Source: Patescibacteria group bacterium
GTDB lineage: Bacteria; Patescibacteriota; Minisyncoccia; JAHIHE01; JAGLIN01
DNA length: 64,000 nt
Direction: 5' to 3'
NCBI GenBank assembly: GCA_029210775.1
Contig: JARGGI010000003.1
Location: forward strand, 4,512-68,511
Numbering within the stretch: position 1 is the stretch's first letter; the number at the start of each line of letters is the position of its first letter. Below, one piece after another: positions 36,935 to 52,009 of the stretch. The position numbers and the translations under genes are program-made. The notes under the pieces were generated by a model. It was not told the DNA's origin, searched no databases, and worked only from the letters and a program-made list of their open reading frames with translations.

Positions 36935-38272
36935 CTATACCTCTTTCAACAGCCTAAAGCTTTTCCGAAAAATATAAAAAGTGATGATTGCTGATAATAT
37001 GTCAGCAACTGGAAAAGCAATATATATTCCATTTAAACCCCAAAACATCGGAAGAATTAACAAAAGTGGAATGAATAAAAATACTTGCCTAAGCATTGAA
37101 ACGAATAAAGCTTGTTTTGACTTTCCCAATGCTTGATAATAACCTCCAACTACTGTTTGAAATCCAACAAAAGGAACACCGATAACAATTATTCTCAAAA
37201 TATTTTTACTGCTTTCAACCAACAACTTGTCAGAAGAAAAGATTGCAACAAGAAAATCTGGAAAAACCAAAATTATGATAAATGCGATTATTGATATGAC
37301 TGTTGCAACTTTAATAGCAAGTGTTGTTGCTCTTCGTGTGCGTTCATATTTTTGAGCACCATAGTTCGCGCCGATAATTGGCATAAGACCTTGTACTAAT
37401 CCAACAATAGGCATAAACACCATCATCAAAATTCTCATAATAATTCCAAACGCTGCAATTACAATATCTGATGAATAAATTGAAAGTGATTTATTCAAAA
37501 GTAGCATCATTACACTTGATGAAGCTTGTCTTACAAAAGATGAAAGTCCAATTAATAAACCTTCCTTTGCGATAATTATATTCAATTTTAAATCGCTTAA
37601 TTTTATTTTTATATGATTATCTTTTCCAAGAAGTATTTTAAAAACATATATAACTCCGACAATCCAAGATATAACTGTTGCCCACGCCGCACCTTTAATT
37701 CCCATATCCAATTCAAAAATAAAAATATAATCAAGAACAATATTCAACAGTGAACTTATAATCATTGCTTGCATTGCTTTATTTGCATCACCAGTTGATC
37801 TGATAATATTATTACCTCCAGCGAGAAAGATAAAAAAGATTGTGCCAAAAATAATTATACTTGCATAGTCTTTCGCAAATGGAAAAACACTACTACTTGC
37901 TCCTAAGGTTTTTAGTAAAGGTATAAATAATACAGCCCCAAAGATAGTCATTGTAATTCCAAACAAAAATGATACTGTCAGGAAATTTCCAAATGATTTT
38001 TCAGCTCTTTGACAATCACGAGAACCAATACTTCTTGAAATAATTGACGAAAAACCGACCCCTAACATCTGTGCGACCGAACCAATTACAATAACTAAAG
38101 GGAAACAAATTGCCACACCAGCCAATCCCAACGTTCCAACTCCTTTGCCAATAAAAATTGTATCAACAACATTATATAAAGTCATTACCAACATTCCAAC
38201 AGCAGCAGGCACAGATTGCTGAAATAATAACTTTGGAATTTTTTGTTCAATTAATTTTTTACTTCTTTGCAT
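36935..38272 (-). CDS. MATE-family multidrug/oligosaccharidyl-lipid efflux transporter
   Basis: Twelve predicted TM helices in two repeated halves; typical MATE N-terminus. Confidence 0.8.
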   Translation of the reverse strand: MQRSKKLIEQKIPKLLFQQSVPAAVGMLVMTLYNVVDTIFIGKGVGTLGLAGVAICFPLVIVIGSVAQMLGVGFSSIISRSIGSRDCQRAEKSFGNFLTVSFLFGITMTIFGAVLFIPLLKTLGASSSVFPFAKDYASIIIFGTIFFIFLAGGNNIIRSTGDANKAMQAMIISSLLNIVLDYIFIFELDMGIKGAAWATVISWIVGVIYVFKILLGKDNHIKIKLSDLKLNIIIAKEGLLIGLSSFVRQASSSVMMLLLNKSLSIYSSDIVIAAFGIIMRILMMVFMPIVGLVQGLMPIIGANYGAQKYERTRRATTLAIKVATVISIIAFIIILVFPDFLVAIFSSDKLLVESSKNILRIIVIGVPFVGFQTVVGGYYQALGKSKQALFVSMLRQVFLFIPLLLILPMFWGLNGIYIAFPVADILSAIITFYIFRKSFRLLKEV

Positions 38273-40196: not shown

Positions 40197-40610
40197 ATGA
40201 AAAGTAAAACACAAAAGTTTCCATTTTACAATAGTGATGAGGAATTGCAAAAGTTTTTATCAAGTAATCTAGCAGACACACTCAAACAAACTATTAAGGT
40301 GACTGTGAAAGTCATGATTAAAGATGAAATGGAATTATTTAGAAAAGAGATGGATGAAAAACTGCAATTCAATGGATATTATCAAAGGAATATGATGTCC
40401 ACTTTAGGAAAAATAGATAATATCAATGTACCAAGATTTAGACAAAATGTAGATAATCTTGAATTAAATTCTTTAAATATTTTTCAAGATCAAAAAAATA
40501 ATTTTATTAAAATGATTCAGCAGATGCATCTTTCGCAATCAATAACGTCTGTATTATTCCTCCCGAAATTTTTTCATCTTTTTCGTTTGATATTACAACC
40601 CTTGACATAA
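40197..40610 (+). pseudogene. IS256-family (mutator-type) transposase N-terminal remnant
   Basis: FNGYYQRNMMSTLGKIDNINVPRFRQ matches the conserved RNGYYER...LRVPRDR block of IS256 transposases; only about 130 aa remain. Confidence 0.6.
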
Positions 40611-41167: not shown

Positions 41168-41788
41168 TTATATTTTTTTAGAAATAATATAAAACCAGTC
41201 TCTTTTATGGGCAGAGAACTTCTTAATATAAAATGACTTAAAACCACATTTGGTTAAATAAACTAGAATTTCCTTTTTTGTGAATTTATTAAAAACAAAA
41301 TCATCAGGTTCTATATCTCCTTTTTCTTTCTTCATAGCAATAACCCCAAAAACGCCATTTTTCTTTAAGGTTCTTCTAACTTCTTTTAAAGAACTTTCAA
41401 TATCATTGAAAGTTAAATGCGTAAACAAAGAAGAAGAGGCCCAAATTCCATCAAAATAATTACCTTCAAAAATGAGCTGCACCATATTCATTAAATAAAA
41501 TTTACCCTTATTATTTTTATTGGCATAAGCTATCATTTTCTCAGATATATCTATTCCAAAACCATCATAGCCTTTTTCGATAAAATATTTTACATCCCTA
41601 CCAGTTCCACTTCCCATATCTAAAATTTTTCCTTTTTTAGATACACATTCTAAAAACTTATCAAGCTTATCTTGCATAAGTACATCCCCACTTTTTAAAT
41701 AGGAATCTAGATTATTATTATACCAGCTTTTTACTTCTTTATAGACCTGTTTCATAAAAAATCGAGAAGTAACTTTGCTACTTCTCAT
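41168..41788 (-). CDS. class I SAM-dependent methyltransferase
   Basis: Motif I ILDMGSGTGRD; 206 aa; no SD of its own; starts 8 nt after the preceding small ORF. Confidence 0.8.
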   Translation of the reverse strand: MRSSKVTSRFFMKQVYKEVKSWYNNNLDSYLKSGDVLMQDKLDKFLECVSKKGKILDMGSGTGRDVKYFIEKGYDGFGIDISEKMIAYANKNNKGKFYLMNMVQLIFEGNYFDGIWASSSLFTHLTFNDIESSLKEVRRTLKKNGVFGVIAMKKEKGDIEPDDFVFNKFTKKEILVYLTKCGFKSFYIKKFSAHKRDWFYIISKKI

Positions 41789-41796
41789 ATTAAAAT

Positions 41797-41904
41797 TTAA
41801 CGTTTATGCGAGAACTTTAATCGATTAAGTTCCACAGCTTTGGCAGCAGAAAGAAATGTTCTGATCTGCCTTGTTCTCACCAATATAGATGGAAACAAAC
41901 ACAC
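41797..41904 (-). CDS. 35-aa ORF (GTG start; MCLFPSILVRTRQIRTFLSAAKAVELNRLKFSHKR) with a strong SD, between the rSAM and methyltransferase genes
   Basis: AAGGAGGTGA 5 nt before the GTG; not in the ORF track (too short); candidate small peptide or coupling ORF. Confidence 0.35.
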   Translation of the reverse strand: MCLFPSILVRTRQIRTFLSAAKAVELNRLKFSHKR

Positions 41905-41953
41905 TTTCACCTCCTTATTTTTTGTATTCGTTGCACAACAAGCTTAGTATTTG

Positions 41954-43252
41954 CTACCGGCTTGCTTTCTCAAACATTTTTTTACTATAGAGTACTTTAA
42001 AGAATATTTCTCTATCTTCTTCCGATTTTACTGGCAACTCTAATTCATGCCATTTAAAGGCATTCCCATTCTGGGGTAGTTTAAGAGCAACGTTATATCC
42101 CTCCTCATCAAGAAATACCAATTCATCATTATACAATACCACACCGCCAAATTCCTCAGTTCTAATTTTTACATCACTTTTGAGCCGCAAATATTCCGGC
42201 ACAATAAAATCAAACTGAGAATGATTAACAACGGGTTTTATTAATTCCGGATTAGTCATGAGGGGGTCTTTCCCACGAATGTCGCCATAAAAAAGCTTAG
42301 CATCCATTCTACAGCCTCCAGAACATTGCAGGAGATAAGAACAGGTTTTACATGTTTCGTAGAGAAAAATACCATCACGCCATTCTTGCATCGCTAACCA
42401 GCATTCTCTTAAAGATTTCTCAAACAAATTACCATAGCTCATATCTGCATGGGCACAGGGACGTACTGATCCATCCGGAGAAACGGAACAATTAAATATT
42501 CCTGCGGTACAATTACGACGCGTAAATTGCTGATATTTTTCCATATCCTGAATAAAACAAAGTGGATAAGTTTCTAATATTTCTACCCACATTCCAAAAT
42601 CTATTTGCAGCCGCAGTAAATCGTCCATTGATTGCTTAAATTGCTGAGGCGTTCCACGATAATTCTTATACTCAGTGTTAGGGGAAGGTGCAACCTTAGT
42701 TGCAGAAAAACGCAACAAGCCAAGTTCATGAGCTAATTTTCCAGTTTCATAAACCTGATAAGCATTTTCCTTACGCACAACCATATTTGCGCTTGTTAAT
42801 ACTCCAGCATCTGTAAGCATGCGAATTTTTGGGAGCAAACGCTTATGGAAACCCTTACGTTGTATTATCTTATCATGTACTTCTGGCTGATAAGACAATA
42901 ACGTTGTCAATACTCCAACTCCATGATCACTAAAAAAACGCGTCATTTCTGGAGTAAGCTTTTGTAAATTGCTATTACAATAAACCCCTAGTCCCAATTC
43001 TCTTGCTTTCCCAATACCAGCCTTAAGAGTATCTTTAAACATTAATGGCTCACCACCAGTAAAGCACACTGACATTACCTTCCAGCGAGCAAGTTCTTCT
43101 ACTAATGTTTTAACCTGATTCGGACTCAGATGTTTCGTTTCCTCTTTTTGAATATTTTGACATGCCCGATAACAATGACTACAAACTTGATTGCAATCAT
43201 CAGTTACTTCGATTTGTACCGAAAGTGGCGCACTAAGTGTTCTGTATAACAT
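41954..43252 (-). CDS. radical SAM enzyme with C-terminal SPASM domain (anSME/peptide-maturase type)
   Basis: CNQVCSHC (CxxxCxxC) at aa 20-27; C-terminal auxiliary cluster motifs CTAGIFNCSVSPDGSVRPC and CKTCSYLLQCSGGC. Confidence 0.85.
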   Translation of the reverse strand: MLYRTLSAPLSVQIEVTDDCNQVCSHCYRACQNIQKEETKHLSPNQVKTLVEELARWKVMSVCFTGGEPLMFKDTLKAGIGKARELGLGVYCNSNLQKLTPEMTRFFSDHGVGVLTTLLSYQPEVHDKIIQRKGFHKRLLPKIRMLTDAGVLTSANMVVRKENAYQVYETGKLAHELGLLRFSATKVAPSPNTEYKNYRGTPQQFKQSMDDLLRLQIDFGMWVEILETYPLCFIQDMEKYQQFTRRNCTAGIFNCSVSPDGSVRPCAHADMSYGNLFEKSLRECWLAMQEWRDGIFLYETCKTCSYLLQCSGGCRMDAKLFYGDIRGKDPLMTNPELIKPVVNHSQFDFIVPEYLRLKSDVKIRTEEFGGVVLYNDELVFLDEEGYNVALKLPQNGNAFKWHELELPVKSEEDREIFFKVLYSKKMFEKASR

Positions 43253-43422
43253 TATCTGCCTCTATATTTTAAAAGAACTCATCTGATTAAAAAGTTTCTT
43301 TTTAATCATCCTTCCTTGTAAATAACTTTAACAAATCCAAAGATATTGTCAATACAGAGAGGATTTTTGTTGCGAATTGATAGAATATATTCCCCTATCA
43401 AAAGTTCTAACGTCCCTTTTTG

Positions 43423-43462
43423 GGTATAAAAATAATCCTTTAAACAAAGGATTATTTTTGTT
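43423..43462. terminator. hairpin (AAAATAATCCTTT-aaac-AAAGGATTATTTTT) upstream of copy 2; a homologous hairpin precedes copy 1 at 40806..40838
   Basis: Seen directly in both copies. Confidence 0.45.
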
Positions 43463-43507
43463 GGCTCCGCATCGTGAACGATGTTAGAACCATTTTTTTA
43501 AATTTAA

Positions 43508-43675
43508 ATGAGAATGCTTTTATCCCAGACCTCTCCGCACAGAGGCAGATTTAGTTTATTGATTGTCATATTGCTCGCTTGGCGGGACAGCTTTCGAACC
43601 TTTGATTGGGTAAAAGCGTTGCCTGTACCAGAGTTAGTGATTCGGCAAATTGGGCAATTATTAGAGCTTGCGTAA
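43508..43675 (+). CDS. small ORF (55 aa; MRMLLSQTSPHRGRFSLLIVILLAWRDSFRTFDWVKALPVPELVIRQIGQLLELA), copy 2 of a paralog pair; candidate precursor peptide
   Basis: ATG start; C-terminal 30 aa conserved with copy 1 through mainly synonymous substitutions; aromatic/Lys motif FRTFDWVK; a partial third copy of the 5' region lies at 43696..43760. Confidence 0.45.
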   Translation: MRMLLSQTSPHRGRFSLLIVILLAWRDSFRTFDWVKALPVPELVIRQIGQLLELA

Positions 43676-43894
43676 AAATATAATAAATATTCTATTCACA
43701 CGGTGGCAGATTTAGTTTATTTAATATTTTCAGTGCTCCGCTTTTCTTATCATTATTAACAATCTAACAGAAAGAGGTCGTTTGTCAATATGCTATTATG
43801 CAATGCTATTATGCAAGTTAATTTCTTTGTTATTATTCCCTCAATCAATAACCTCTCTCGGACTTACGCCGTTGCCAGGGCTGGTGATTTATAA

Positions 43895-44575
43895 TTAATT
43901 TCTATATTTTTGAATTCTACCTTCTTTAGAAACCCACATATCGCCAAATCCATAAAGTTTTCCTGATTCTGATAATTCAACCCATGATCCTTTTTCACCA
44001 ATAGCAACAAACTGCGTTTTAGATTCTAGCCTTAAATTCTTAAACGCATTAAAGGCAACTTCTGCGGTTTTCTCTTGAGAGTGGACAAGACACCCCAAAT
44101 CGATAATACCCCAACCTTTCTTCCATATTGCTCTATTGTCTTCAATGTCTGTATACCAAGCAGCGAGCGCCTGAACACCAGCGCTTATCCCGACAATAAC
44201 AATGCCTTTTTTTATTGCACGTTTTAATACCGGTAATAATTGCCAACGATCAAACAAAGATAGAAGATATTCTGTTTTTCCTCCTCCAAAATAAATTACT
44301 GAAGATTCCATTATGGCTACTTCAGCTGCTTCTTTGCCTTCTAATTCAACAACCGCTCGGAAATTAAAATCATTTTCAAAAATTTTCCGCATCGAATTAA
44401 TATAATCAATACTGTCTTTCGCAGCAGTTGGGAAAAAAATAAAATTAGCTCTATCTTTTTGTAAAGCAAATTTTTTTATTGCTATATCGACTGATTTTGT
44501 TTCGCCTTTTTTTATTTCACCTCCGCCTATGAGAAAAATTTTATTTTGCATAATAATATATTTAATTGAAAACAA
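43895..44575 (-). CDS. peptidase S51 / cyanophycinase-dipeptidase E family (type-1 glutamine amidotransferase-like fold)
   Basis: GGG...FFPTA..., YFGGGKTEYLL and the nucleophile elbow GISAGV; start at 44575 (TTG) or 44551 (ATG). Confidence 0.7.
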   Translation of the reverse strand: MFSIKYIIMQNKIFLIGGGEIKKGETKSVDIAIKKFALQKDRANFIFFPTAAKDSIDYINSMRKIFENDFNFRAVVELEGKEAAEVAIMESSVIYFGGGKTEYLLSLFDRWQLLPVLKRAIKKGIVIVGISAGVQALAAWYTDIEDNRAIWKKGWGIIDLGCLVHSQEKTAEVAFNAFKNLRLESKTQFVAIGEKGSWVELSESGKLYGFGDMWVSKEGRIQKYRN

Positions 44576-44633
44576 TTTTGTAAGTGATAGTTAAAAAATT
44601 ACCCTCTACTAATTGCGTAAAGGGCGGTAATAA

Positions 44634-45869
44634 TTAATTACCAATTTGGCTTTTACTTTCATACAGAAGATTTTTTATTTCTAACAATTCTGATATACCT
44701 CCAATTAGCGTTATGCCTGTTTTACGTACTTTGATATCAAGCTTTCCTGTTGTGGTTTTATTTGCCAAAACAACTCGCATTGGTATTCCTAAAAGATCGG
44801 CATCTATCAAAGAACGCCCTATTGATTGATCTCTTAAGTCTAATAATACAGTACAGCCTAATATTTCTAGATTTTTGGTTAATTTCTTCGCTTCTTCGGC
44901 TCGTTCCTGATTAGCTATCAAGTGTATATCAAACGGCGCTATTTCTATGGGCCAAACCAACCCATGTTCGTCGTGATAATACTCGGCGAGTATTTGCATC
45001 AATCGACTTAAACCAATACCCCCGACGGCAGTCTGAATCGGCTTATTACTACCTATCGACAACGCATTCATTTTCCCGGTAATAATAGTGCCATGACGCA
45101 CTATATCTCCGAGCTCCACAGCCGGTACGTTTTCCATTAAATGGCCGCAATTAGGACAAACATCCATTATTTGTTTACCAAACCTATAAGAATTGATGCA
45201 TGCTGTACATGTATGCACAAAACACTGTTTGGTGGCGGAAGGAACCCAAAAAGAATCAGCTGGAGATTCTAACGGTGCGAAATAATACGACGCTTTCTTG
45301 TAAGGCAAACCTAACCAGCCCAAGAAAGACCGCATTACTTCATCCATCCGATGCATTTCCTCGCTTAATTCGATTTCATTCCGCGCCAATATATACATAT
45401 CGCCCATTACAAACGATCTGCTGCGGATAAAACCATGACTAGGTTGCAATTCATTGCGTATGCGTTCTCCAATCTGGAAATAGCGAAGAGGCATATCCTT
45501 GTCTTTGAAATCCGACTGGCAAAATAAATTTACCATTGATTCTTCCTGAGTGGGATTTATAACATATCTTTTCCCGTCTTTAAGAGTAGTTTCACAGAAC
45601 AATCCGGCAAAACGTTCAGCACGTCCCGATTTCTCCCATAAAAACATTTCTTGAAGGCTAGGTAAAAACATTTCCCAAAATCCTTGCTCACGACAAAACC
45701 TCCTAAATGCTCCTGAAATTTTTTCAAGAACCAATACGGCAGGGGGTAAAAGTGCAATACATCCCGACGATATTTTTTTTGCATACCCAGCAGATTCAAG
45801 CCAAATTAAGCCATCAGCGTCATTCCGTTGTGGCAGTTTCGTTCTAAAAAGTCCCGATGAATAAAGCAT
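44634..45869 (-). CDS. bacterial-type prolyl-tRNA synthetase homolog lacking the INS editing domain, which is replaced by a CxxC...CxxC zinc ribbon
   Basis: Colinear with ProRS: motif 1 region LPPAVLVLEKI, motif 2 FQIGERIRNE...RSRSFVMGDMY, motif 3 GGIGLSRLMQIL, then an anticodon-binding domain (LVWPIEIAPFDIHLI); a CTAC...CPNC insert sits where INS would be; higher GC than the host genes. Confidence 0.75.
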   Translation of the reverse strand: MLYSSGLFRTKLPQRNDADGLIWLESAGYAKKISSGCIALLPPAVLVLEKISGAFRRFCREQGFWEMFLPSLQEMFLWEKSGRAERFAGLFCETTLKDGKRYVINPTQEESMVNLFCQSDFKDKDMPLRYFQIGERIRNELQPSHGFIRSRSFVMGDMYILARNEIELSEEMHRMDEVMRSFLGWLGLPYKKASYYFAPLESPADSFWVPSATKQCFVHTCTACINSYRFGKQIMDVCPNCGHLMENVPAVELGDIVRHGTIITGKMNALSIGSNKPIQTAVGGIGLSRLMQILAEYYHDEHGLVWPIEIAPFDIHLIANQERAEEAKKLTKNLEILGCTVLLDLRDQSIGRSLIDADLLGIPMRVVLANKTTTGKLDIKVRKTGITLIGGISELLEIKNLLYESKSQIGN

Positions 45870-45921: not shown

Positions 45922-45950
45922 AGTATAGTTAATATCTATCGTATAGTCAA
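45922..45950 (-). promoter_or_regulatory. near-consensus sigma70 promoter for the ProRS-like/S51 operon (TTGACT-N17-TATACT)
   Basis: Seen directly on the minus strand, about 50 nt upstream of the SD GAGGTGAT. Confidence 0.45.
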
Positions 45951-45951
45951 T

Positions 45952-46002
45952 ATCCCTGCTCAAAATCTGACATTTCTACTTTGGGTTGACAATCCCTGCT
46001 CA
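45952..46002 (-). promoter_or_regulatory. two direct copies of ATCCCTGCTCA, 40 nt apart; the promoter-proximal copy abuts the -35
   Basis: Seen directly (45952-45962 and 45992-46002). Confidence 0.35.
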
Positions 46003-46015
46003 CAAACAAATCAAA

Positions 46016-47311
46016 TTATTCACCGAAAATTTTGGCATTCATCGCAATTTCTTTGAGTATTGTCTGCATAAACCTACATTTTTGCCTATCTATCTCCTTG
46101 CCGGAGATAATCTGGAATGCCGGACAAGGACCGCCGCAAATATGACGTGCTTCGCATTTACTACACTGGCTGATTCTCTTAATAGGAATATTCATTTTCC
46201 CCTTGAAATTAGTCAGAAGGACATCATTCCAATTTTGAGAGCAAAAAGACAAGTGCCCCTCAGTGCTAATCGAAGCCATTATATACCCATTATTAAACAT
46301 ACAAGGACAGTGGCGCTTAATATTATTTGCTAAAGAAAAAAGTATCGGCGACGCTGCGGAGTCTATTGTAACTTTATTTTTCCTAGCAATACGTACAAGC
46401 TTCACTAATATTTGTGCATATTTTTCTCCATCAATATTCCATGCCAAAGACCGATAATGAAATGGTGTGTTTATCGTTATCGTTTTAGAAGGAAATGTTT
46501 TTAATGTGCCACGAAAAATTTTCGGCAATTGATCCAAAAAACCGGCATGCGGAGTTATAAGAACATGCGTATCTATTCCCGCTTTTATTAAACGATAGTA
46601 ATTATGTTTTGTGTCCTTAAAACTGCCACGCCCGTTTTTATAAATCCTGAATTTATTGTTAATATTTTCTGGCCCATCTATAGAAACTCCAATTTTAAAA
46701 TCATTCTTCTTAAAAAACCTTATCATATTATCATTAAGAAATGTAAGGTTGGTTGTCATTGTATAAAACGGCTTAATCATCTTCCTTGTTTTGACAGCTT
46801 CATTAACCATGTCTACTGTCCGTTTGATATGATCAAACCTAATCAATGGCTCACCCCCAAAAAAATGATACGTAATTTTTTCTGATGTTCCGTAAGAAAT
46901 TGTTTTCTTAATTACAGTCTCAAGTGTAGCATGAGACATTGTTTTTAAATTATTACGATTCTTCGTAACAAAACATTCGGGGCATTTTAAATTACACTCC
47001 TCAGTAAGAGCAATTCTAAAAGCACGGATATCTGGGTTTAAATTGAAAACTTTCGGATAAGGTATAGATTTCGATCGACTAAAAAAACCAAGCTCGTCAA
47101 GTTCTTTAAGCACACGCCATGCCTCCTTTTGTTTAGAAAGTGGCATGGAAATTATTACCTTTTTTGGATCTCTGGCAATTTTAAAAGCGTTTAATATGAC
47201 AAGATGAGAAGAACCGACTTCCGCATAATTCAGTGTCTCTTCATCAAAAATAGTGATCTTCCCTCTTGATCCGGAATAAACCCGAAAAGGATGAGCTGAT
47301 ATTTTTTTCAT
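46016..47311 (-). CDS. radical SAM/SPASM enzyme with a ~110-aa N-terminal extension (RRE/PqqD-like position) before the CxxxCxxC cluster
   Basis: CNLKCPEC at aa ~115; C-terminal SPASM motif CSKCEARHICGGPC; start trimmed to MKKISAHPFRV so that it begins 4 nt after the stop of the upstream rSAM (the track ORF 46016..47410 includes an in-frame overlap). Confidence 0.8.
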   Translation of the reverse strand: MKKISAHPFRVYSGSRGKITIFDEETLNYAEVGSSHLVILNAFKIARDPKKVIISMPLSKQKEAWRVLKELDELGFFSRSKSIPYPKVFNLNPDIRAFRIALTEECNLKCPECFVTKNRNNLKTMSHATLETVIKKTISYGTSEKITYHFFGGEPLIRFDHIKRTVDMVNEAVKTRKMIKPFYTMTTNLTFLNDNMIRFFKKNDFKIGVSIDGPENINNKFRIYKNGRGSFKDTKHNYYRLIKAGIDTHVLITPHAGFLDQLPKIFRGTLKTFPSKTITINTPFHYRSLAWNIDGEKYAQILVKLVRIARKNKVTIDSAASPILFSLANNIKRHCPCMFNNGYIMASISTEGHLSFCSQNWNDVLLTNFKGKMNIPIKRISQCSKCEARHICGGPCPAFQIISGKEIDRQKCRFMQTILKEIAMNAKIFGE

Positions 47312-47315
47312 ATAA

Positions 47316-48239
47316 TTATTTCCAAAATCTAGGATTATCAAAAAGCGAAACGCAATGAACACCGAAACAATTAGGTAGTTTTTCACTTTTCGATAATATA
47401 TTATTATCAATATTAGCTATTATCTCAGAAACCGGATCATTGAATAGATTACCCAGTTTTATATCTGGCCGATGGAAACACGGCGTCAAATCACCTTCGG
47501 CGCTACAAACAAAATACTCCTTACCCATACAACAGAGGGCGTTCGGTAATAGATTCTTGTTATTAAAAATCGCTTCCGTAAGCGCTATATAATCCTTTAT
47601 ATGCGTTGATTTATTTTTTTGCGAAATTTTTTTTATGGCATTAAAAATAATATTGTCTTTATTCTCTGTATTTAATTGCTGCATTTTTCCTTTTGGAATA
47701 AAGACTTCTTGAAATCGAATATCCGAAATACCAAGACCTTGAAGCCAATTAATAGTTTCATCTAATGTGGAAGCATTTTTCTTTGTTACTACCGTCGTCG
47801 TCGCCACATTTCGATAGCCACGCGAAATCAATCCCTTAATAGCATATACGGTGTCATCAAATCTACCACGTTGTTTATTGTGTACTTCTCTTATATGAGA
47901 ATCTATGGAAATATCAATCCTGTCCACATTGAGCCTTATTATCGTATCCAAATCGGCATCAGTAAGAAAAGTTGCACTGGTGTTTATTATTACCGGAATT
48001 TTTTTCTTTTTTATTTCACGAATAATAATATATGTTTCTTGCTTTAATTTTAAATGCAAAGGTTCGCCACCGGTTAAAATAACTTTATCAAAATTAAGCG
48101 CTTCTATTTTATCAGCAAAAATCTCAGCTTTATCTGGACTAATTTTTGAGGCTACTCGTTTTTGATATCCAGTCGCATAAAAACAATAGGCGCAACTAAT
48201 ATTACATAAATTATTTACCATCAAAAATAAACAGCGCAT
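47316..48239 (-). CDS. radical SAM enzyme with a short twitch/SPASM-like C-terminal Cys cluster
   Basis: CNISCAYC at aa 12-19; C-terminal CCMGKEYFVCSAEGDLTPC...CFGVHC. Confidence 0.8.
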   Translation of the reverse strand: MRCLFLMVNNLCNISCAYCFYATGYQKRVASKISPDKAEIFADKIEALNFDKVILTGGEPLHLKLKQETYIIIREIKKKKIPVIINTSATFLTDADLDTIIRLNVDRIDISIDSHIREVHNKQRGRFDDTVYAIKGLISRGYRNVATTTVVTKKNASTLDETINWLQGLGISDIRFQEVFIPKGKMQQLNTENKDNIIFNAIKKISQKNKSTHIKDYIALTEAIFNNKNLLPNALCCMGKEYFVCSAEGDLTPCFHRPDIKLGNLFNDPVSEIIANIDNNILSKSEKLPNCFGVHCVSLFDNPRFWK

Positions 48240-48589
48240 ATTTATTATATTTATACAGTAAAAAATACATTGTCAGACAAAATATGTTAATTAAGGATAC
48301 TTAATTATAAAAATTCCCCTTGCAATCAAAAAAACAAGAGGAATTTTAAAATGTGATATAGTAATTCTCTCTTAACCAGATTGACATGATGTCCTTGCTT
48401 TCTGTGTAGCTATATTAACTTTTTTTGCTTTTTTTTGTGATTTCATAGTAATAATATTCCTTTTATAATCATCAAATTAACCCTTAAATATTTCGACTTT
48501 TAATTTTTATAATAAAAACGGACACTGACCTTTAATCAAATATAGTATATTTCTCCTTATCTGTCAATGGCTCGTGCCTACATTCTGCT

Positions 48590-49663
48590 CCGAAGTGCAA
48601 CATCATAAAGGACATCCAAAGCCTGGTATAATAGTTAAGTCTTCACTTAATTATTAACCAACAAATAGATGCCCTACAAACATATTACACCAGATCAGAG
48701 AAATGAGCTATCTGCCCTTAAAAGAACTAAAATAAGACAGGAAGAAATCGCTCAATTATTGGGAAAAAACAGAACGACAATTTACAGGGAAATTATAAGA
48801 AACAAAAATAAGAATGGAAAATACGATGCCAGAATCGCCAAACAAAAAACCAAAAAAAGAAGAATAAAAGCCAACCAAAGATTCAGAAAAATAGAAAATA
48901 ACAGATGGTTGAGAACATATCTAATTAAAAAAATAAAAGTATTGGTCGCCAGAACAGATTGCGGGAAGAATAAAAAGGAAATGGCCAGAAGACAAATCAA
49001 AACATATCGGCAAAGACAGCATCTATGATTTCATATATACTGAAAGAAAAGATCTGGTAAAATATCTCCGATGCCAGAAGGGAAAATATCGCAGAAGGTA
49101 TGGCACGAGAATTAGAGAAAAACAGCGAGAGGAAGCTAAAAAGAAGAGGATTGATACAAGGCCTGAAATTGTTAAAACGAGAGAAAGAATCGGCGATTGG
49201 GAAGGAGATACTATTGTCGGCAAAGAAAAAACAATTCATATTTTGACTCATGTGGAAAGAAAAAGCGGAATGCTGTTTGCGGATAAGTTGGAAAAAGCGA
49301 CAGCGGAATTAACTAGAGAAAAAACTATTAAGAGATTTGAAAAAATACCAAGAAAGAAAAAATACACGCTCACTTATGATAATGGAACAACCTTTGCTAG
49401 CCATCAAGATACTGAAAGAAAGATAAAAATAGGCATTTATTTTGCTTTTCCTTATCATTCTTGGGAAAGAGGATGCAACGAAAACGCTAATGGGCTTCTC
49501 AGGCAATTCTTTCCCAAAAAATCATCATTCGCAAATATTAATCAAAAAGATATTGACAAAGCCTATCGGCTCATTAATAATAGACCAAGAAAGAGGCTTA
49601 ACTATCTAACTCCTTACGAAGTGTTCTATGAGAAATAATTTCTTAAAAAATGTTGCACTTTGG
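48590..49663 (+). mobile_element. IS30-family insertion sequence (~1.07 kb) with terminal inverted repeats CCGAAGTGCAACAT / ATGTTGCACTTTGG
   Basis: IRL at 48590-48603 and IRR at 49650-49663 (13 of 14 matching); a transposase lies between them. Confidence 0.7.
48669..49638 (+). pseudogene. IS30-family transposase interrupted by a single +1 frameshift in an A7 run (~48925-48935)
   Basis: ORF1 is the HTH N-terminus (MPYKHITPDQRNELSALKRTKIRQEEIAQLLGKNRTTIYREIIRN); the +1 frame continues YWSPEQIAGRIKRKWPEDKSKHIGKDSIYDFIYTERKD...DWEGDTIVGKEKTIHILTHVERKSGMLFADKL...DNGTTFASHQD...NNRPRKRLNYLTPYEVFYEK (DDE core) with no further stops. Confidence 0.8.
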
Positions 49664-50149: not shown

Positions 50150-50384
50150 CCTAAGCCGATTGTTGATTGGAATAAATGGCTAATGTTAGCTATAAATCGT
50201 TGTTTTGTTGCTAAAATATCATGCAGTTATATAGACCTATTTATGTCGACTTTTGCTCTGGAAAAAATCCCGAAATTGGGACAATACTGCTCTGAAATTG
50301 TAACGAATTAACTACAAATTAATCTTACCAGATAATAACGGATATGTCAACGCTCGCTCGCTCAGTCTTGTCTGATATAAGATG

Positions 50385-50456
50385 CTCCGCGAGAGGGATT
50401 CGAACCCCCGACCAATTGGTTAACAGCCAACTGCTCTACCACTGAGCTATCGCGGA
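50385..50456 (-). tRNA. tRNA-Asn (anticodon GTT)
   Basis: Minus-strand TCCGCGATAGCTCAGTGGTAGAGCAGTTGGCTGTTAACCAATTGGTCGGGGGTTCGAATCCCTCTCGCGGAG; canonical cloverleaf, anticodon loop CTGTTAA; its 3' end faces the island. Confidence 0.85.
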
Positions 50457-50578: not shown

Positions 50579-52009
50579 TTAATAATCAAGCAATCTTTTT
50601 GATTCTCTATGCTTTCTAATTTTTTCAAGTGCTTTTGCTTCAATCTGCCTAATTCTTTCTCTTGTCACACCAAATTCCTGTCCAATTTCCTCCAAAGTAT
50701 GAGTCACTCCATCTTCAAGTCCAAAACGTAATTTCAAAATTTTCTGTTCTCTTGGAGAAAGTTCAACTAAAATTTCTTTCACATACCCCTTAAGTAGCTG
50801 TCTTCCTGCAGATTGAGATGGAAGAACTGCATCAGTGTCTTCTATAAAATCACGAAGAGTACTGTCGTCATCATCTTCACCGACAGAAGTCTCAAGTGAA
50901 ACCGTATCTTGAGATATTTTCATAATATGTCTAACTTTTTCAACTTCAATATTCATTTCAGATGCAATTTCCTCTGGTAATGGTTCTCTTCCTAAATCCT
51001 GAACAAGACGCCTTGTTACCTGAGAAAACTTATTTATTGTTTCAACCATATGAACTGGAATTCTAATCGTGCGAGATTGATCTGCTATTGCTCTCGTAAT
51101 CGCTTGACGAATCCACCATGTTGCATATGTTGAAAATTTATATCCCTTTCTATAATCAAATTTTTCAACAGCTCTGAATAGTCCAATATTTCCTTCTTGA
51201 ATTAAATCCAATAAACTCAAATTTGCACTTCTTCCAACATATTTTTTTGCAATACTTACAACCAAACGAAGGTTTGCTTCAGAAAGCATCTGCTTAGCGG
51301 CCACATCACCCTTTTCTTTTCTTTTTGATAAAGAGACTTCTTCTTCCCCAGTCAAAAGAGACACTCTTCCAATCTCACGCAGATACATTTGAACAGAATC
51401 GCTGGAAATATTATCAAGAGACAATTCTCTTATTTCTTTTTCTACTTCTTTCTTGGTTTTTTTACTAACATCTTCTTTGGCATCAGAAACATCAATTATA
51501 TCAACATTGCTTACTACCTTTATATTTTCTTGTTCAAATTTGTCATATAGCAATTCAAGTTGACCAATATCATTTTCAATATCAGGAATTATTTTTATAA
51601 TCTCTTCTTCGGTTACAAAACCTTTCGATTTTCCCCTACTCATTAATTCTTCAATTTGATTATTAATGTTTTCATTTTCAACATCCTGCTTCTTTAAGTC
51701 TTTCTTTTTCAATTTTCCTGGCTTTATGCTCTTCCCTTTTTGCTTTCTTTTAAGTTTTGAAGATTTTCTCGCAATTGATTTTTTTGCTATTTTCTCTTTT
51801 TTCGCTTTTGCTTTTGCTTTTACAACAGTTTTAACTGTTTTCTTTTTCGGAGTTACTTTTTTCACTGTTTTCTTTTTTTTTGCTTTTGCTGTTACAACAG
51901 TTTTAGCTTCTTTCTTTTTCGGAGTTACTTTTTTCATTGTTTTCTTTTTCATCAATTTTGATTTTATCAATTTAATTGTTTTTTTATTTTTTATTTTTTT
52001 TGTTTTCAT
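50579..52009 (-). CDS. rpoD: RNA polymerase sigma-70 factor RpoD with a Lys/Ala/Thr-rich tandem-repeat N-terminus (histone H1-like)
   Basis: Regions 2-4 are conserved ([27 protein letters not shown]; 4.2 [23 protein letters not shown]); N-terminal [18 protein letters not shown] repeated twice (a ~63-nt tandem repeat near 51820-51960). Confidence 0.9.

What the first reader, a model, noticed from the sequence alone, without database searches (positions are those of the whole stretch)
44634..45869. Island-borne ProRS paralog with a zinc ribbon in place of the editing domain
The protein is colinear with bacterial-type ProRS (catalytic motifs 1-3 and the C-terminal anticodon-binding domain) but is only 411 aa; a CxxC...CxxC insert occupies the position of the INS editing domain. 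It is encoded between an S51 peptidase and rSAM genes, at about 45% GC, with a near-consensus promoter preceded by two direct 11-nt repeats. There are two non-exclusive readings. Extra copies of an aaRS inside biosynthetic clusters are a classic self-resistance device when the product inhibits that synthetase (established for mupirocin/IleRS, borrelidin/ThrRS, albomycin/SerRS, indolmycin/TrpRS). Alternatively, aaRS-like enzymes can aminoacylate carrier proteins or peptides. It could also simply be the cell's only ProRS (INS-less ProRS exists in some bacteria) that happens to lie here.
Basis: partly seen in the sequence, partly recalled or inferred. Interest (0 to 1): 0.6.

Follow-up and report, generated by a model that had tools for sequence, protein, structure and literature searches.

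The report
ProRS-like enzyme in peptide-modification cluster
This gene is probably not the cell's ordinary proline-charging enzyme: it is a diverged copy that always sits in a small conserved gene cluster with a tiny peptide gene and two radical-SAM enzymes, and that cluster looks like an undescribed pathway for a compound aimed at the proline-charging enzyme itself.

Summary
The 411-aa ORF at 44634-45869 (-) is real. It has the bacterial-type ProRS fold with no editing domain and a four-Cys ribbon at that position. Its GC is 40%, not 45%.

It is not a canonical ProRS. It scores 207 bits against a cut-off of 558. It belongs to a rare clade (NJ bootstrap 100/100) that is only 27-28% identical to ordinary ProRS. 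The ATP- and alpha-amino-binding residues are kept, but the proline pocket is remodelled.

In Patescibacteria, Bdellovibrionales and Bacillota MAGs the family sits in one conserved cassette:
- a 20-36 aa peptide ending ...RTSCQSG
- radical-SAM enzyme 1
- radical-SAM/SPASM enzyme 2
- the ProRS-like gene
- an S51 peptidase

In about 14 of 16 informative loci a canonical ProRS lies next to it. One locus keeps the same peptide and rSAM genes but carries a diverged AlaRS-like plus AlaRS-core pair instead.

Best reading: a biosynthetic aminoacyl-transfer enzyme, analogous to AcmF/AcmD/AcmE of ascamycin, in a RiPP-like pathway for an aaRS-directed compound. The partner ProRS, absent from this window, would be the immunity or supply copy. 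The chemistry is inferred, not shown. No description of this system was found in the library searched.

The parts
48539..48567 (-). Best promoter-like site of the region (TTGACA-17-TATATT, 11 of 12), upstream of the peptide gene
   Evidence: This is a consensus match only.
48372..48446 (-). Candidate precursor peptide, 24 aa: MKSQKKAKKVNIATQKARTSCQSG
   Evidence: A small ORF with the C-terminal motif R-[TSA]-S-C-[QH]-S-[GTA]-stop lies just upstream of rSAM1 in every related locus that includes that region. Differences between loci are mostly synonymous, including TCN/AGC serine switches. An AAGGA-like ribosome-binding site lies upstream.
48305..48347 (-). 14-bp hairpin followed by UUUUUAU, between the peptide gene and rSAM1 (possible attenuator or partial terminator)
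   Evidence: -16 kcal/mol, z = -2.77 against shuffles.
47316..48239 (-). Radical-SAM enzyme 1 (307 aa), with CxxxCxxC and a C-terminal Cys-rich SPASM-like region
   Evidence: Orthologues are 44-54% identical in related loci.
46016..47311 (-). Radical-SAM/SPASM peptide-maturase-like enzyme 2 (431 aa from the ATG at 47311)
   Evidence: Best NCBIfam hits are the nif11, anSME, PapB and CcpM maturases, all far below their cut-offs. P0130 is 100% identical at 431 aa. There are about 64 homologues at 33-100% identity, then a sharp drop in score.
45922..46005 (-). Intergenic region with two copies of TGAGCAGGGAT (45952-45965 and 45992-46005) and the promoter-like TTGACT-17-TATACT site (45950..45922)
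   Evidence: The hexamers and the ribosome-binding site are conserved in L014; the repeat is not.
44634..45869 (-). ProRS-like paralog (411 aa). Identical to MDF1498050.1 from a Patescibacteria MAG.
45147..45209 (-). Four-Cys zinc-ribbon segment (C221-x2-C224 ... C238-x2-C241) at the INS position
44601..44625 (-). Terminator-like hairpin with a T-run, between the ProRS-like gene and the S51 gene
43895..44575 (-). S51-family peptidase (PepE/cyanophycinase family). Its likely true start is the ATG at 44551. The GxSAG serine and the LVH histidine are conserved among the cluster-linked copies.
   Evidence: An S51 gene is present in most related loci.
41954..43252 (-). Third radical-SAM/SPASM gene (432 aa). 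Its membership of the unit is uncertain.
   Evidence: Nucleotide conservation with the 75%-identical relative L014 runs from 48470 to 43906 and stops before this gene.
41168..41788 (-). SAM-dependent methyltransferase (206 aa). Its membership of the unit is uncertain.
   Evidence: Methyltransferases also lie near the cluster in L006 and L033.

Best explanation
The gene encodes a dedicated biosynthetic member of a rare ProRS-derived paralog family. It is probably neither a housekeeping nor a resistance synthetase.

It works inside a conserved RiPP-like cassette: a basic 20-36 aa peptide ending ...R-T-S-C-Q-S-G, two radical-SAM enzymes, the ProRS-like enzyme and an S51 peptidase.

Proposed mechanism (inferred):
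- The radical-SAM pair modifies the invariant Ser/Cys-containing C-terminus of the peptide.
- The ProRS-like enzyme installs an aminoacyl group, most likely prolyl, on the modified peptide or on a fragment derived from it. It keeps the class II ATP site, the alpha-amino anchor and an anticodon-binding domain, but has a rebuilt side-chain pocket.
- It does this either from its own aminoacyl-adenylate or from Pro-tRNA(Pro), as AcmF does with Ala-tRNA in ascamycin biosynthesis.
- The S51 peptidase processes or detoxifies the product.
- The product is predicted to target ProRS.
- In most related clusters a co-travelling canonical ProRS would supply Pro-tRNA and/or immunity, as AcmD does. That gene is absent from this window's cluster.

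Shown: the paralog status, the conserved cassette, the peptide and the aaRS pairing. Inferred: the chemistry, the acceptor and the target.
For: (a) Non-canonical status.
- Best NCBIfam ProRS score is 206.7 bits against a cut-off of 558.
- PGAP names it only a 'His/Gly/Thr/Pro-type tRNA ligase C-terminal domain-containing protein'.
- The family is monophyletic in 100 of 100 NJ bootstraps. It is 27-28% identical to both full-length and INS-less CPR ProRS, which are 41% identical to each other.

(b) Active site. Residue roles come from the MtbProRS structures (PMC13629369).
- Kept: T107 and E109 (TXE loop, alpha-amino group), R138 (motif 2), E140, F153, E252, G254, G286 and R289 (motif 3).
- Changed: His425 to D255 (D in 92% of the family) and Glu211 to S206 (invariant).
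- The Gly-rich proline-binding loop is replaced, PTHEE becomes PTQEE, and F257, L259 and Y263 are replaced (M/V, S, L), as are G281 and Y283 (A; M or G).

(c) Conserved synteny in Patescibacteria (Uhrbacteria, Moraniibacteriota, Moranbacteria), Bdellovibrionales MAGs and a Bacillota/Syntrophomonadaceae-labelled MAG: peptide, rSAM1, rSAM2, ProRS-like, with S51 nearby.

(d) The peptide motif is conserved with synonymous codon turnover.

(e) A canonical ProRS is adjacent in about 14 of 16 informative non-redundant loci.
- The one immediately downstream is an E-type ProRS that passes the proS_fam_I cut-off (526 against 437).
- These copies are 63-68% identical between CPR and Bdellovibrionales loci, against 52-56% to ordinary E-type ProRS.
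- L001 carries two E-type ProRS genes plus the paralog.

(f) Modularity.
- L033 has the same peptide (…PRTSCQSG), rSAM1, rSAM2 and S51. Instead of the ProRS pair it has a diverged AlaRS-like protein (121 bits against a cut-off of 457) plus a near-canonical AlaRS core (450 bits), HIT and a methyltransferase.
- L034 has a distant rSAM2 with M20 and S66 peptidases, a diverged ProRS-like protein (134 bits) and a canonical INS-less ProRS (391 bits against a cut-off of 307).

(g) Precedent. AcmF (AlaRS-like, Ala-tRNA-dependent transferase), AcmD (extra AlaRS giving supply and self-resistance) and AcmE (hydrolase); also the IleRS-like SbzA (PMC12945691).

(h) Accessory HIT, NUDIX, HD and extra S51 genes lie near some clusters.
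Against: - No biochemical data exist. Nothing shows that the peptide is made, modified or aminoacylated.
- The window's own cluster has no canonical ProRS partner within 64 kb. Neither does the L015 group within 13.6 kb. The immunity part of the model is therefore not universal.
- Unlike AcmF, this protein keeps its ATP-binding residues. A tRNA-dependent transferase role is not specifically indicated, and ordinary adenylation, even tRNA charging, remains possible.
- The remodelled pocket means the amino acid may not be proline.
- No exporter is consistently linked. The MATE gene at 36935-38272 is about 3 kb beyond the cluster.
- The Nomurabacteria variant pairs the paralog with ProRS but lacks the peptide, rSAM1 and rSAM2. 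The paralog's function is therefore not strictly tied to this peptide.
- All host assignments come from MAGs.
Confidence: 0.55

Rival explanations
1. Self-resistance ProRS. The 411-aa protein is a drug-insensitive tRNA(Pro)-charging enzyme that protects the producer from a ProRS inhibitor made by the neighbouring radical-SAM genes.
For: - Class II motif 2 and 3 residues, the TXE loop and the anticodon-binding domain are retained.
- It sits inside a biosynthetic-looking cluster.
- A remodelled amino-acid pocket is what inhibitor-resistant synthetases sometimes show.
- In the window it is the only ProRS-related gene in the cluster.
- Self-resistance aaRS copies are an established device (PMC5388404; PMC12945691).
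Against: - In most related clusters a canonical ProRS is already present next to it, and in L001 there are two. A second, highly diverged resistance ProRS would be redundant.
- It scores at 37% of the ProRS cut-off.
- The residue matching a metal/phosphate-contacting His, the residue matching the water-positioning Glu, and the whole proline-binding loop are replaced. That exceeds the few substitutions I recall as typical of resistant copies.
- The parallel AlaRS-like plus AlaRS-core pairing in L033 mirrors AcmF/AcmD, where the diverged member is the transferase.
Confidence: 0.13
2. Sole housekeeping ProRS of a reduced Patescibacteria genome that happens to lie next to radical-SAM genes.
For: - INS-less P-type ProRS of about 410-420 aa, some with the same Cys ribbon, do exist in CPR genomes (P0059, L007 419-aa gene).
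- No other ProRS is present in the 64-kb window.
Against: - Those CPR housekeeping enzymes keep the canonical residues. They group with the full-length ProRS on the far side of the long branch that isolates the paralog family (100/100), and average 41% identity to them.
- Members of this family coexist with canonical ProRS on the same contigs.
- The family is rare and patchy: 36 clusters at 90% identity among 5.8 billion, and 5 of 185,579 species genomes.
- It is always embedded in the same cassette.
- E-type ProRS is common in Patescibacteria.
Confidence: 0.04
3. A catalytically repurposed or non-transferase role. Examples: a tRNA(Pro)- or peptide-binding specificity or regulatory subunit (HisZ-like), or an enzyme that activates a non-proline substrate such as a radical-SAM-derived amino acid for a purpose unrelated to the small peptide.
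For: - The pocket is remodelled, so the substrate may not be proline.
- The query itself has Q142 and S144 in the motif 2 loop where canonical enzymes have R and R.
- The Nomurabacteria variant cluster lacks the peptide and rSAM1/2 but keeps the ProRS plus ProRS-like pair, with a GFO/IDH/MocA oxidoreductase and a different rSAM/SPASM.
- The distant member in L034 has lost the motif 2 Glu (RNV).
Against: - ATP-site and alpha-amino-anchoring residues are invariant across the core family of 37 sequences at about 51% mean identity. This argues for retained adenylate or aminoacyl chemistry.
- The peptide, rSAM1 and rSAM2 co-occur strictly with the paralog in the main form of the cluster.
Confidence: 0.15

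Closest known systems
AcmF / AcmD / AcmE of ascamycin biosynthesis (Streptomyces sp. 80H647)
   Same: - A diverged class II aaRS-like protein that forms its own clade.
- It is encoded next to an extra canonical aaRS of the same specificity, which supplies aa-tRNA and confers self-resistance.
- A hydrolase that removes the aminoacyl group is also encoded.
- The product is an aaRS-directed aminoacyl conjugate (PMC12945691).
- The L033 variant of the present cassette even uses an AlaRS-like plus AlaRS-core pair.
   Different: - AcmF derives from AlaRS, is truncated and has lost most ATP- and alanine-activating residues. The present protein derives from ProRS and keeps the ATP site and the anticodon-binding domain.
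- The ascamycin acceptor is a nucleoside sulfamate made by a non-ribosomal pathway. Here the context is a ribosomal peptide plus two radical-SAM enzymes.
- The hydrolase is S51 rather than an alpha/beta-hydrolase.
- The window cluster lacks the canonical partner.
Canonical bacterial (P-type) prolyl-tRNA synthetase, including the INS-less forms of R. palustris and CPR bacteria
   Same: - The fold, the order of motifs 1-3 and the HGTP anticodon-binding domain.
- The four-Cys knuckles at the INS junction.
- Best PDB matches are 2j3l, 5znj and 2i4l.
   Different: - 27-28% identity and a separate clade.
- Below all curated cut-offs.
- Substitutions in the proline-binding loop and at the positions matching His425 and Glu211.
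- Cluster-embedded and patchily distributed.
[quoted passage not shown]
   Same: A short ribosomal peptide with a conserved C-terminus may serve as the scaffold on which an amino-acid-derived molecule is built and later released by a peptidase. The amino acid is added with aaRS/tRNA-related chemistry (PMC12945691; PMC13622209).
   Different: - No LanB-like gene is present.
- The ligase candidate is a class II aaRS homologue. It would activate the incoming amino acid rather than phosphorylate the peptide's C-terminus.
- Radical-SAM tailoring.
Microcin C-type peptide-nucleotide 'Trojan horse' aaRS inhibitors
   Same: A small ribosomal peptide precursor and an aaRS as the presumed target. Serine peptidases occur in or near the related clusters (S51; S66, the MccF family, in L034), as does a HIT hydrolase (L007, L033). 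From my own knowledge these recall the MccF and MccH immunity functions.
   Different: - No ThiF/MccB-like adenylyltransferase.
- Radical-SAM enzymes and an aaRS-like protein take its place.
- The peptide's C-terminus is not the amino acid of the suspected target.
- The link is by analogy only.
EpmA (PoxA/GenX) with EpmB, and SerRS-like amino acid:carrier-protein ligases
   Same: These are class II aaRS paralogs that keep adenylate chemistry but transfer the aminoacyl group to a protein nucleophile. In the EpmA case they work with a radical-SAM enzyme (from my own knowledge).
   Different: - They derive from LysRS or SerRS and lack a tRNA-binding domain.
- Their targets are EF-P or carrier proteins.
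- No carrier protein or efp gene lies in these clusters.

Membership tests
Proline--tRNA ligase (canonical ProRS; NCBIfam equivalogs NF006625, TIGR00409, NF008979, TIGR00408) | Whole-protein score at or above the curated cut-off | tested here: not met
   Scores against cut-offs: 206.7 vs 558, 183.3 vs 306.7, 164.7 vs 550, 72.2 vs 437. PGAP names it only by its C-terminal domain.
Proline--tRNA ligase (canonical ProRS) | Class II motif 2 and 3 residues and the TXE loop that bind ATP and the alpha-amino group | tested here: met
   T107, E109, R138, E140, F153, E252, G254, G286 and R289 are invariant in the family (only G254 falls to 97% in the 37-sequence set). Their roles are taken from MtbProRS.
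Proline--tRNA ligase (canonical ProRS) | Proline pocket: the Gly-rich proline-binding loop, and the residues matching His425, Phe427 and Glu211 of MtbProRS | tested here: not met
   H becomes D255, E becomes S206, the GGG loop is replaced, F257 becomes M or V, and Y283 becomes M or G. Residue mapping is by sequence alignment only.
Proline--tRNA ligase (canonical ProRS) | Anticodon-binding domain, and charging of tRNA(Pro) | tested here: inconclusive
   The HGTP_anticodon domain is present and its core is conserved. Three canonically invariant residues differ: D345L, K353R/S and F354L. Charging is not testable with these tools.
aaRS-like aminoacyl transferases of natural-product pathways (AcmF/SbzA type) | A diverged aaRS paralog forming its own clade inside a biosynthetic cluster | tested here: met
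   synteny.
aaRS-like aminoacyl transferases of natural-product pathways (AcmF/SbzA type) | A co-encoded canonical aaRS of the same specificity (supply and/or self-resistance) | tested here: inconclusive
   Met in about 14 of 16 informative related loci. Not met in the window itself or in the L015 group.
aaRS-like aminoacyl transferases of natural-product pathways (AcmF/SbzA type) | Transfer of the aminoacyl group from aa-tRNA to a non-tRNA acceptor | not testable with these tools
   This needs enzymology. AcmF lost its ATP-binding residues, whereas this protein keeps them. SbzA keeps weak canonical activity.
RiPP cluster with radical-SAM/SPASM maturase | A conserved small precursor ORF next to the maturase genes | tested here: met
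   A peptide ending R-[TSA]-S-C-[QH]-S-[GTA] lies upstream of rSAM1 in the window and in L001-5, L007, L008, L010-15, L024, L029, L031 and L033. Codon changes are synonymous.
RiPP cluster with radical-SAM/SPASM maturase | Membership of a described radical-SAM maturase or precursor family | tested here: not met
   All NCBIfam radical-SAM hits are far below their cut-offs. The peptides match no NCBIfam model. No paper describing the system was found.
Self-resistance aaRS copy | An otherwise canonical, functional synthetase present in addition to a housekeeping copy | tested here: inconclusive
   It coexists with canonical ProRS in relatives, but the protein itself is non-canonical. A second copy in this genome could not be looked for.
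PEARL (LanB-like peptide aminoacyl-tRNA ligase) | A LanB-like fold or domain | tested here: not met
   The only Pfam domains are tRNA-synt_2b and HGTP_anticodon. The fold is ProRS.

The most novel reading that the evidence does not exclude
Patescibacteria and a few other uncultured bacteria carry a modular toxin-building cassette. One conserved scaffold peptide (…RTSCQSG) and one radical-SAM pair make a constant moiety. Interchangeable pairs of 'diverged aaRS-like transferase plus canonical aaRS' (ProRS-type here, AlaRS-type in L033) attach different amino acids. The same scaffold is thereby retargeted to different aminoacyl-tRNA synthetases, and the canonical partner gives immunity. This would be a ribosomal-peptide-derived, naturally combinatorial family of aminoacyl-adenylate-like inhibitors. 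It would also be the first class II ProRS-derived enzyme acting in RiPP-type biosynthesis.
Probability: 0.3. Interest if true: 0.85.

Novelty: new variant of a known kind. Interest (0 to 1): 0.72.

Why it matters
If the reading is right:
- It adds a ProRS-derived member to the very short list of aaRS-like enzymes that build natural products (AcmF, SbzA).
- It places such an enzyme for the first time in a ribosomal-peptide and radical-SAM context.
- It points to an unexplored source of ProRS- and AlaRS-directed inhibitors, in ultra-small Patescibacteria that were thought to have little secondary metabolism.

ProRS is a validated drug target (halofuginone; Mtb and Pseudomonas inhibitor programmes). 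The cluster also supplies a ready experimental handle: a 24-aa peptide, three or four enzymes, and, in related clusters, a candidate immunity ProRS.

For annotation, this family should not be counted as the organism's proline--tRNA ligase when the completeness or translation capacity of CPR genomes is scored.

Tried and rejected
- **Exact-sequence look-up of the window protein's contigs failed**. The source was instead identified through cluster membership as MDF1498050.1 from a Patescibacteria MAG.
- **Second ProRS in the window:** none was found by tblastn with E-type and P-type queries. The 643-nt gap after S51 holds no ProRS remnant even at E < 50.
- **Scans with the family profile** returned only 5 loci from species-representative genomes and 14 from metagenomes. 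The window's own genome was not among them, so the rest of that genome could not be searched for proS.
- **Dedicated tRNA(Pro) in the clusters:** none in the main cluster type. A tRNA-Pro(GGG) lies only beside the Nomurabacteria variant.
- **NCBIfam scan of the peptides:** no family matched.
- **Literature searches** for ProRS with radical SAM and RiPP, for aaRS-like with RiPP, and for CPR with RiPP found no description of the system.
- **The direct repeat upstream of the gene as a regulatory site:** it is not conserved in the 75%-identical relative, whereas the promoter-like hexamers are.
- **'Zn ribbon replaces INS' as a novelty:** rejected, because the Cys pairs flank INS in full-length ProRS.
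- **Third radical-SAM gene and methyltransferase as core parts:** conservation with L014 stops at the end of S51, so they are left as uncertain.
- **Not attempted:** the representative-protein profile search, because canonical ProRS would swamp the counts.
Full report
**Observation**

The ORF at 44634..45869 on the minus strand encodes 411 aa. It carries the Pfam domains tRNA-synt_2b and HGTP_anticodon. It aligns to bacterial-type ProRS in two blocks that skip the INS editing domain. An AlphaFold2 model built on a 26-sequence family alignment (mean pLDDT 87, pTM 0.88) matches ProRS of E. faecalis, S. aureus and R. palustris best (TM about 0.82-0.87 normalised to the query).

C221, C224 and C241 are invariant in the family and C238 is present in 97%. 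The neighbours are an S51 peptidase and radical-SAM genes, as stated. The upstream direct repeat (45952-45965 and 45992-46005) and the TTGACT-17-TATACT site exist.

Two corrections are needed:
- The gene is 40.0% GC, not about 45%. The window is 30.6%.
- The Cys ribbon is not an insert that replaced INS. The same CxxC...CxxC pairs flank the ~150-aa INS in 18 of 18 full-length P-type ProRS compared, and occur in some INS-less CPR ProRS. The ribbon is what remains when INS is absent.

**The protein is not a canonical ProRS**

- Its best NCBIfam score is 206.7 bits against a cut-off of 558.
- The protein is 100% identical to MDF1498050.1 from a Patescibacteria MAG. PGAP names that record only 'His/Gly/Thr/Pro-type tRNA ligase C-terminal domain-containing protein'.
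- A search of 5.8 billion proteins found 36 clusters of 399-412 aa at 40-94% identity. After that the score drops abruptly to ordinary ProRS.
- In an NJ tree this family is monophyletic in 100 of 100 bootstraps on a long branch. It is 27-28% identical to both INS-bearing ProRS and the INS-less ProRS typical of CPR bacteria, which are 41% identical to each other.

I compared family columns with canonical ones, taking residue roles from the MtbProRS Pro-AMP structures (PMC13629369).
- Kept: the ATP site and alpha-amino anchor, namely T107/E109 (TXE loop), R138, E140, F153, E252, G254, G286 and R289.
- Rebuilt: the side-chain pocket. PTHEE becomes PTQEE. The metal/phosphate-contacting and pocket-lining His becomes D255. 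The water-positioning Glu becomes S206. The Gly-rich proline-binding loop is replaced. F257, L259, Y263, G281 and Y283 all change.

This pattern argues for retained adenylate or aminoacyl chemistry with an altered or enlarged substrate site. The residue mapping is by alignment, not by superposed coordinates.

**Genomic context is the main evidence**

Contigs carrying family members show one cassette. They come from Uhrbacteria, Moraniibacteriota, three Bdellovibrionales MAGs, a Bacillota/Syntrophomonadaceae-labelled MAG and many unnamed metagenome contigs. The cassette is rSAM1 (~300 aa), rSAM2 (~430 aa, SPASM-type peptide-maturase-like), then the ProRS-like gene, with an S51 peptidase just upstream or downstream.

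Immediately upstream of rSAM1 every locus that includes that region has a small ORF with a basic body and a conserved C-terminus:
- window: MKSQKKAKKVNIATQKARTSCQSG
- L001: …KARRIRLAVQKPRTSCQSG
- L005: …KARRIRLAAQKPRTSCQSG
- L007: …LRKQTAHTSCQSG
- L008, L011-13: …KARRIRLAAQPPRSSCHST
- L015: …KARRIQLTAQKPRASCQSA
- L024, L031 and L033: similar

Codon comparison shows mostly synonymous differences, including TCN/AGC serine switches. The conservation is therefore at the protein level.

In the window this ORF has an AAGGA-like ribosome-binding site. The best promoter-like site of the region lies upstream (48567..48539). A 14-bp hairpin plus U-run follows the ORF before rSAM1. From my own knowledge this arrangement is common for RiPP precursor genes. 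No NCBIfam model matches the peptides, and the radical-SAM proteins fall far below all curated family cut-offs.

**A canonical ProRS accompanies the paralog in most loci**

In about 14 of 16 non-redundant loci where the flanks allow a judgement, a canonical ProRS gene lies next to the paralog or the cassette.
- Most often it is an E-type (archaeal/eukaryote-like) ProRS of ~478 aa immediately downstream: L001-4, L006/L030, L008, L010 (split into two ORFs), L011-13/L029 and L024-26.
- In L007 it is an INS-less P-type ProRS.
- In the Nomurabacteria-type loci it is a 530-aa E-type ProRS.
- In L034 it is a P-type ProRS.

The L001 478-aa protein passes the proS_fam_I cut-off (526 against 437). L001 carries a further 502-aa E-type ProRS as well. 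The cluster-linked 478-aa proteins are 63-68% identical between CPR and Bdellovibrionales loci. This parallels the divergence of the radical-SAM genes, whereas ordinary E-type ProRS, including Patescibacteria ones, are 52-56% identical to them. Several of the top hits sit on contigs whose lengths match contigs carrying the paralog or rSAM2. The canonical ProRS therefore appears to travel with the cassette.

The window's cluster, its 75%-identical relative L014, and the L015 group have S51 or other genes at that position and no ProRS partner.

**The cassette is modular**

I searched with rSAM2 (about 64 close homologues, then a sharp drop) and looked at two contexts.
- L033 (Moranbacteria) has S51, the same peptide (…KARRIQLKSQTPRTSCQSG), rSAM1 and rSAM2. 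These are followed by a diverged AlaRS-like protein (alaS 121 bits against a cut-off of 457), a near-canonical AlaRS catalytic core (450 bits), a HIT hydrolase and a methyltransferase.
- L034 has a distant rSAM2, M20 and S66 peptidases, a distant member of the ProRS-like family (134 bits; it shares the PTQEE, IGD and SY signatures) and a canonical INS-less ProRS (391 bits against a cut-off of 307).

The recurring unit is thus 'diverged aaRS-like protein plus canonical aaRS of the same specificity'.

**Mechanism**

The closest experimentally characterised logic is ascamycin biosynthesis (PMC12945691).
- AcmF is a diverged AlaRS-like enzyme. It transfers alanine from Ala-tRNA to the nucleoside sulfamate.
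- AcmD is an extra AlaRS. It supplies Ala-tRNA and is the self-resistance copy.
- AcmE is a hydrolase that removes the alanyl group.
- The IleRS-like SbzA plays a comparable dual role in SB-203208 biosynthesis.

By analogy I propose the following. The radical-SAM pair modifies the invariant Ser/Cys C-terminus of the peptide. The ProRS-like enzyme adds an aminoacyl (probably prolyl) group to it or to a fragment of it. S51 processes or detoxifies the product. The product targets ProRS.

Whether the donor is the enzyme's own adenylate (EpmA- or aa:carrier-protein-ligase-like) or Pro-tRNA (AcmF-like) cannot be decided. The retained ATP site favours the first and the retained anticodon-binding domain allows the second. 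HIT, NUDIX, HD, S66 and extra S51 genes near some clusters fit handling of an aminoacyl-nucleotide-like compound, but this is only suggestive. All of this paragraph is inference.

**Rivals**

- *Self-resistance ProRS.* This remains possible for the window, which has no partner ProRS. It is disfavoured by redundancy with canonical ProRS in relatives, by the depth of divergence and by the AlaRS parallel.
- *Sole housekeeping ProRS.* This is contradicted for the family by coexistence with canonical ProRS, by its separate clade and by its rarity (5 of 185,579 species genomes). It is untested for this genome.
- *A different substrate or a non-transferase role.* This is kept open by the remodelled pocket and by the Nomurabacteria variant. 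That variant is HTH, ProRS530, ProRS-like, a 61-aa ORF, a GFO/IDH/MocA-type oxidoreductase and a different rSAM/SPASM, with no peptide, rSAM1 or rSAM2.

**Novelty**

aaRS-like biosynthetic enzymes with a co-encoded resistant aaRS are known. A ProRS-derived one, in a ribosomal-peptide and radical-SAM cassette, spread among Patescibacteria and swappable with an AlaRS-derived pair, was not found in the literature library searched. I rate it a new variant of a known kind. Its second reading (an aaRS-like enzyme acting on a peptide) is the best supported. Its first (self-resistance) fits the neighbouring gene found in related clusters rather than this one.

Noticed in passing
L033 6643-14791 (JGI Ga0208968_1000619, Moranbacteria-type): The same S51, peptide (…PRTSCQSG), rSAM1 and rSAM2 cassette is followed by a diverged AlaRS-like protein (389 aa, 121 bits against a cut-off of 457) and a near-canonical AlaRS catalytic core (433 aa, 450 bits). 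A HIT hydrolase and a methyltransferase come next. This is an alanine version of the ProRS-like/ProRS pairing.
   Followed up: partly
L034 1-7241 (Logan SRR11814490_5570): A distant rSAM2 (33% identity) is followed by an M20 peptidase and an S66 peptidase (the MccF/LdcA family). Then come a distant ProRS-like family member (434 aa, motif 2 RNV) and a canonical INS-less ProRS (447 aa, above the proS_fam_II cut-off).
   Followed up: partly
L017 6023-12795; also L018, L020-23, L028 (Nomurabacteria-type): A variant cluster: HTH regulator, E-type ProRS (530 aa), ProRS-like (409 aa, with His rather than Asp at position 255), a 61-aa ORF, a GFO/IDH/MocA-like oxidoreductase and a different rSAM/SPASM (449 aa). 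A tRNA-Pro(GGG) gene lies just downstream. It has no RTSCQSG peptide and no rSAM1 or rSAM2.
   Followed up: partly
window 41168-43252 (-): A third radical-SAM/SPASM gene (432 aa, NirJ2/AhbD/mycofactocin-maturase-like, far below cut-offs) and a SAM methyltransferase lie downstream of S51. Conservation with the close relative L014 stops before them, so it is unclear whether they belong to the cluster.
   Followed up: partly
window 43253-43894: A 643-nt stretch with no convincing ORF lies between S51 and the third rSAM gene. It holds a 30-nt direct repeat (43531-43560 and 43692-43721, 83% identical) and a perfect 13-nt tandem duplication (43790-43815). No ProRS remnant was detected.
   Followed up: partly
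window 48669-49638 (+), 50384-50456 (-), 40197-40610 (+): Two adjacent ORFs flank the cluster on one side. The first has an HTH_38 domain. The second had no Pfam hit, but I recall its sequence as IS30-transposase-like. tRNA-Asn(GTT) follows them. On the other side is an ORF with no Pfam hit that I recall as resembling an IS256/mutator-type transposase N-terminus. Together with the raised GC, this fits a mobile island.
   Followed up: partly
Full-length P-type ProRS P0046, P0065, P0077, P0105, P0112, P0117 and others: CxxC ... CxxC pairs bracket the INS editing domain in all 18 full-length bacterial-type ProRS compared. This suggests a zinc knuckle at the base of INS in this group of ProRS.
   Followed up: partly
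L008 3140-5803: In one locus the cassette lies next to a CBASS-like pair (SAVED and SMODS/AGS_C domains), a resolvase and a ParB-methylase. This points to a defence or mobile-element neighbourhood.
   Followed up: no
L007 5005-13467: Three S51 peptidase paralogs, a HIT hydrolase, an HD phosphohydrolase and a flavin reductase surround the cassette in this locus.
   Followed up: no
window 50579-52009 (-): An RpoD-like sigma factor with a ~110-aa extremely Lys-rich N-terminal extension.
   Followed up: no
L015 6343-10424; JGI contig: A CysRS gene lies a few genes from the cassette in two unrelated loci. In L015 a PLP-dependent decarboxylase directly follows the ProRS-like gene. This may be coincidence.
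   Followed up: no
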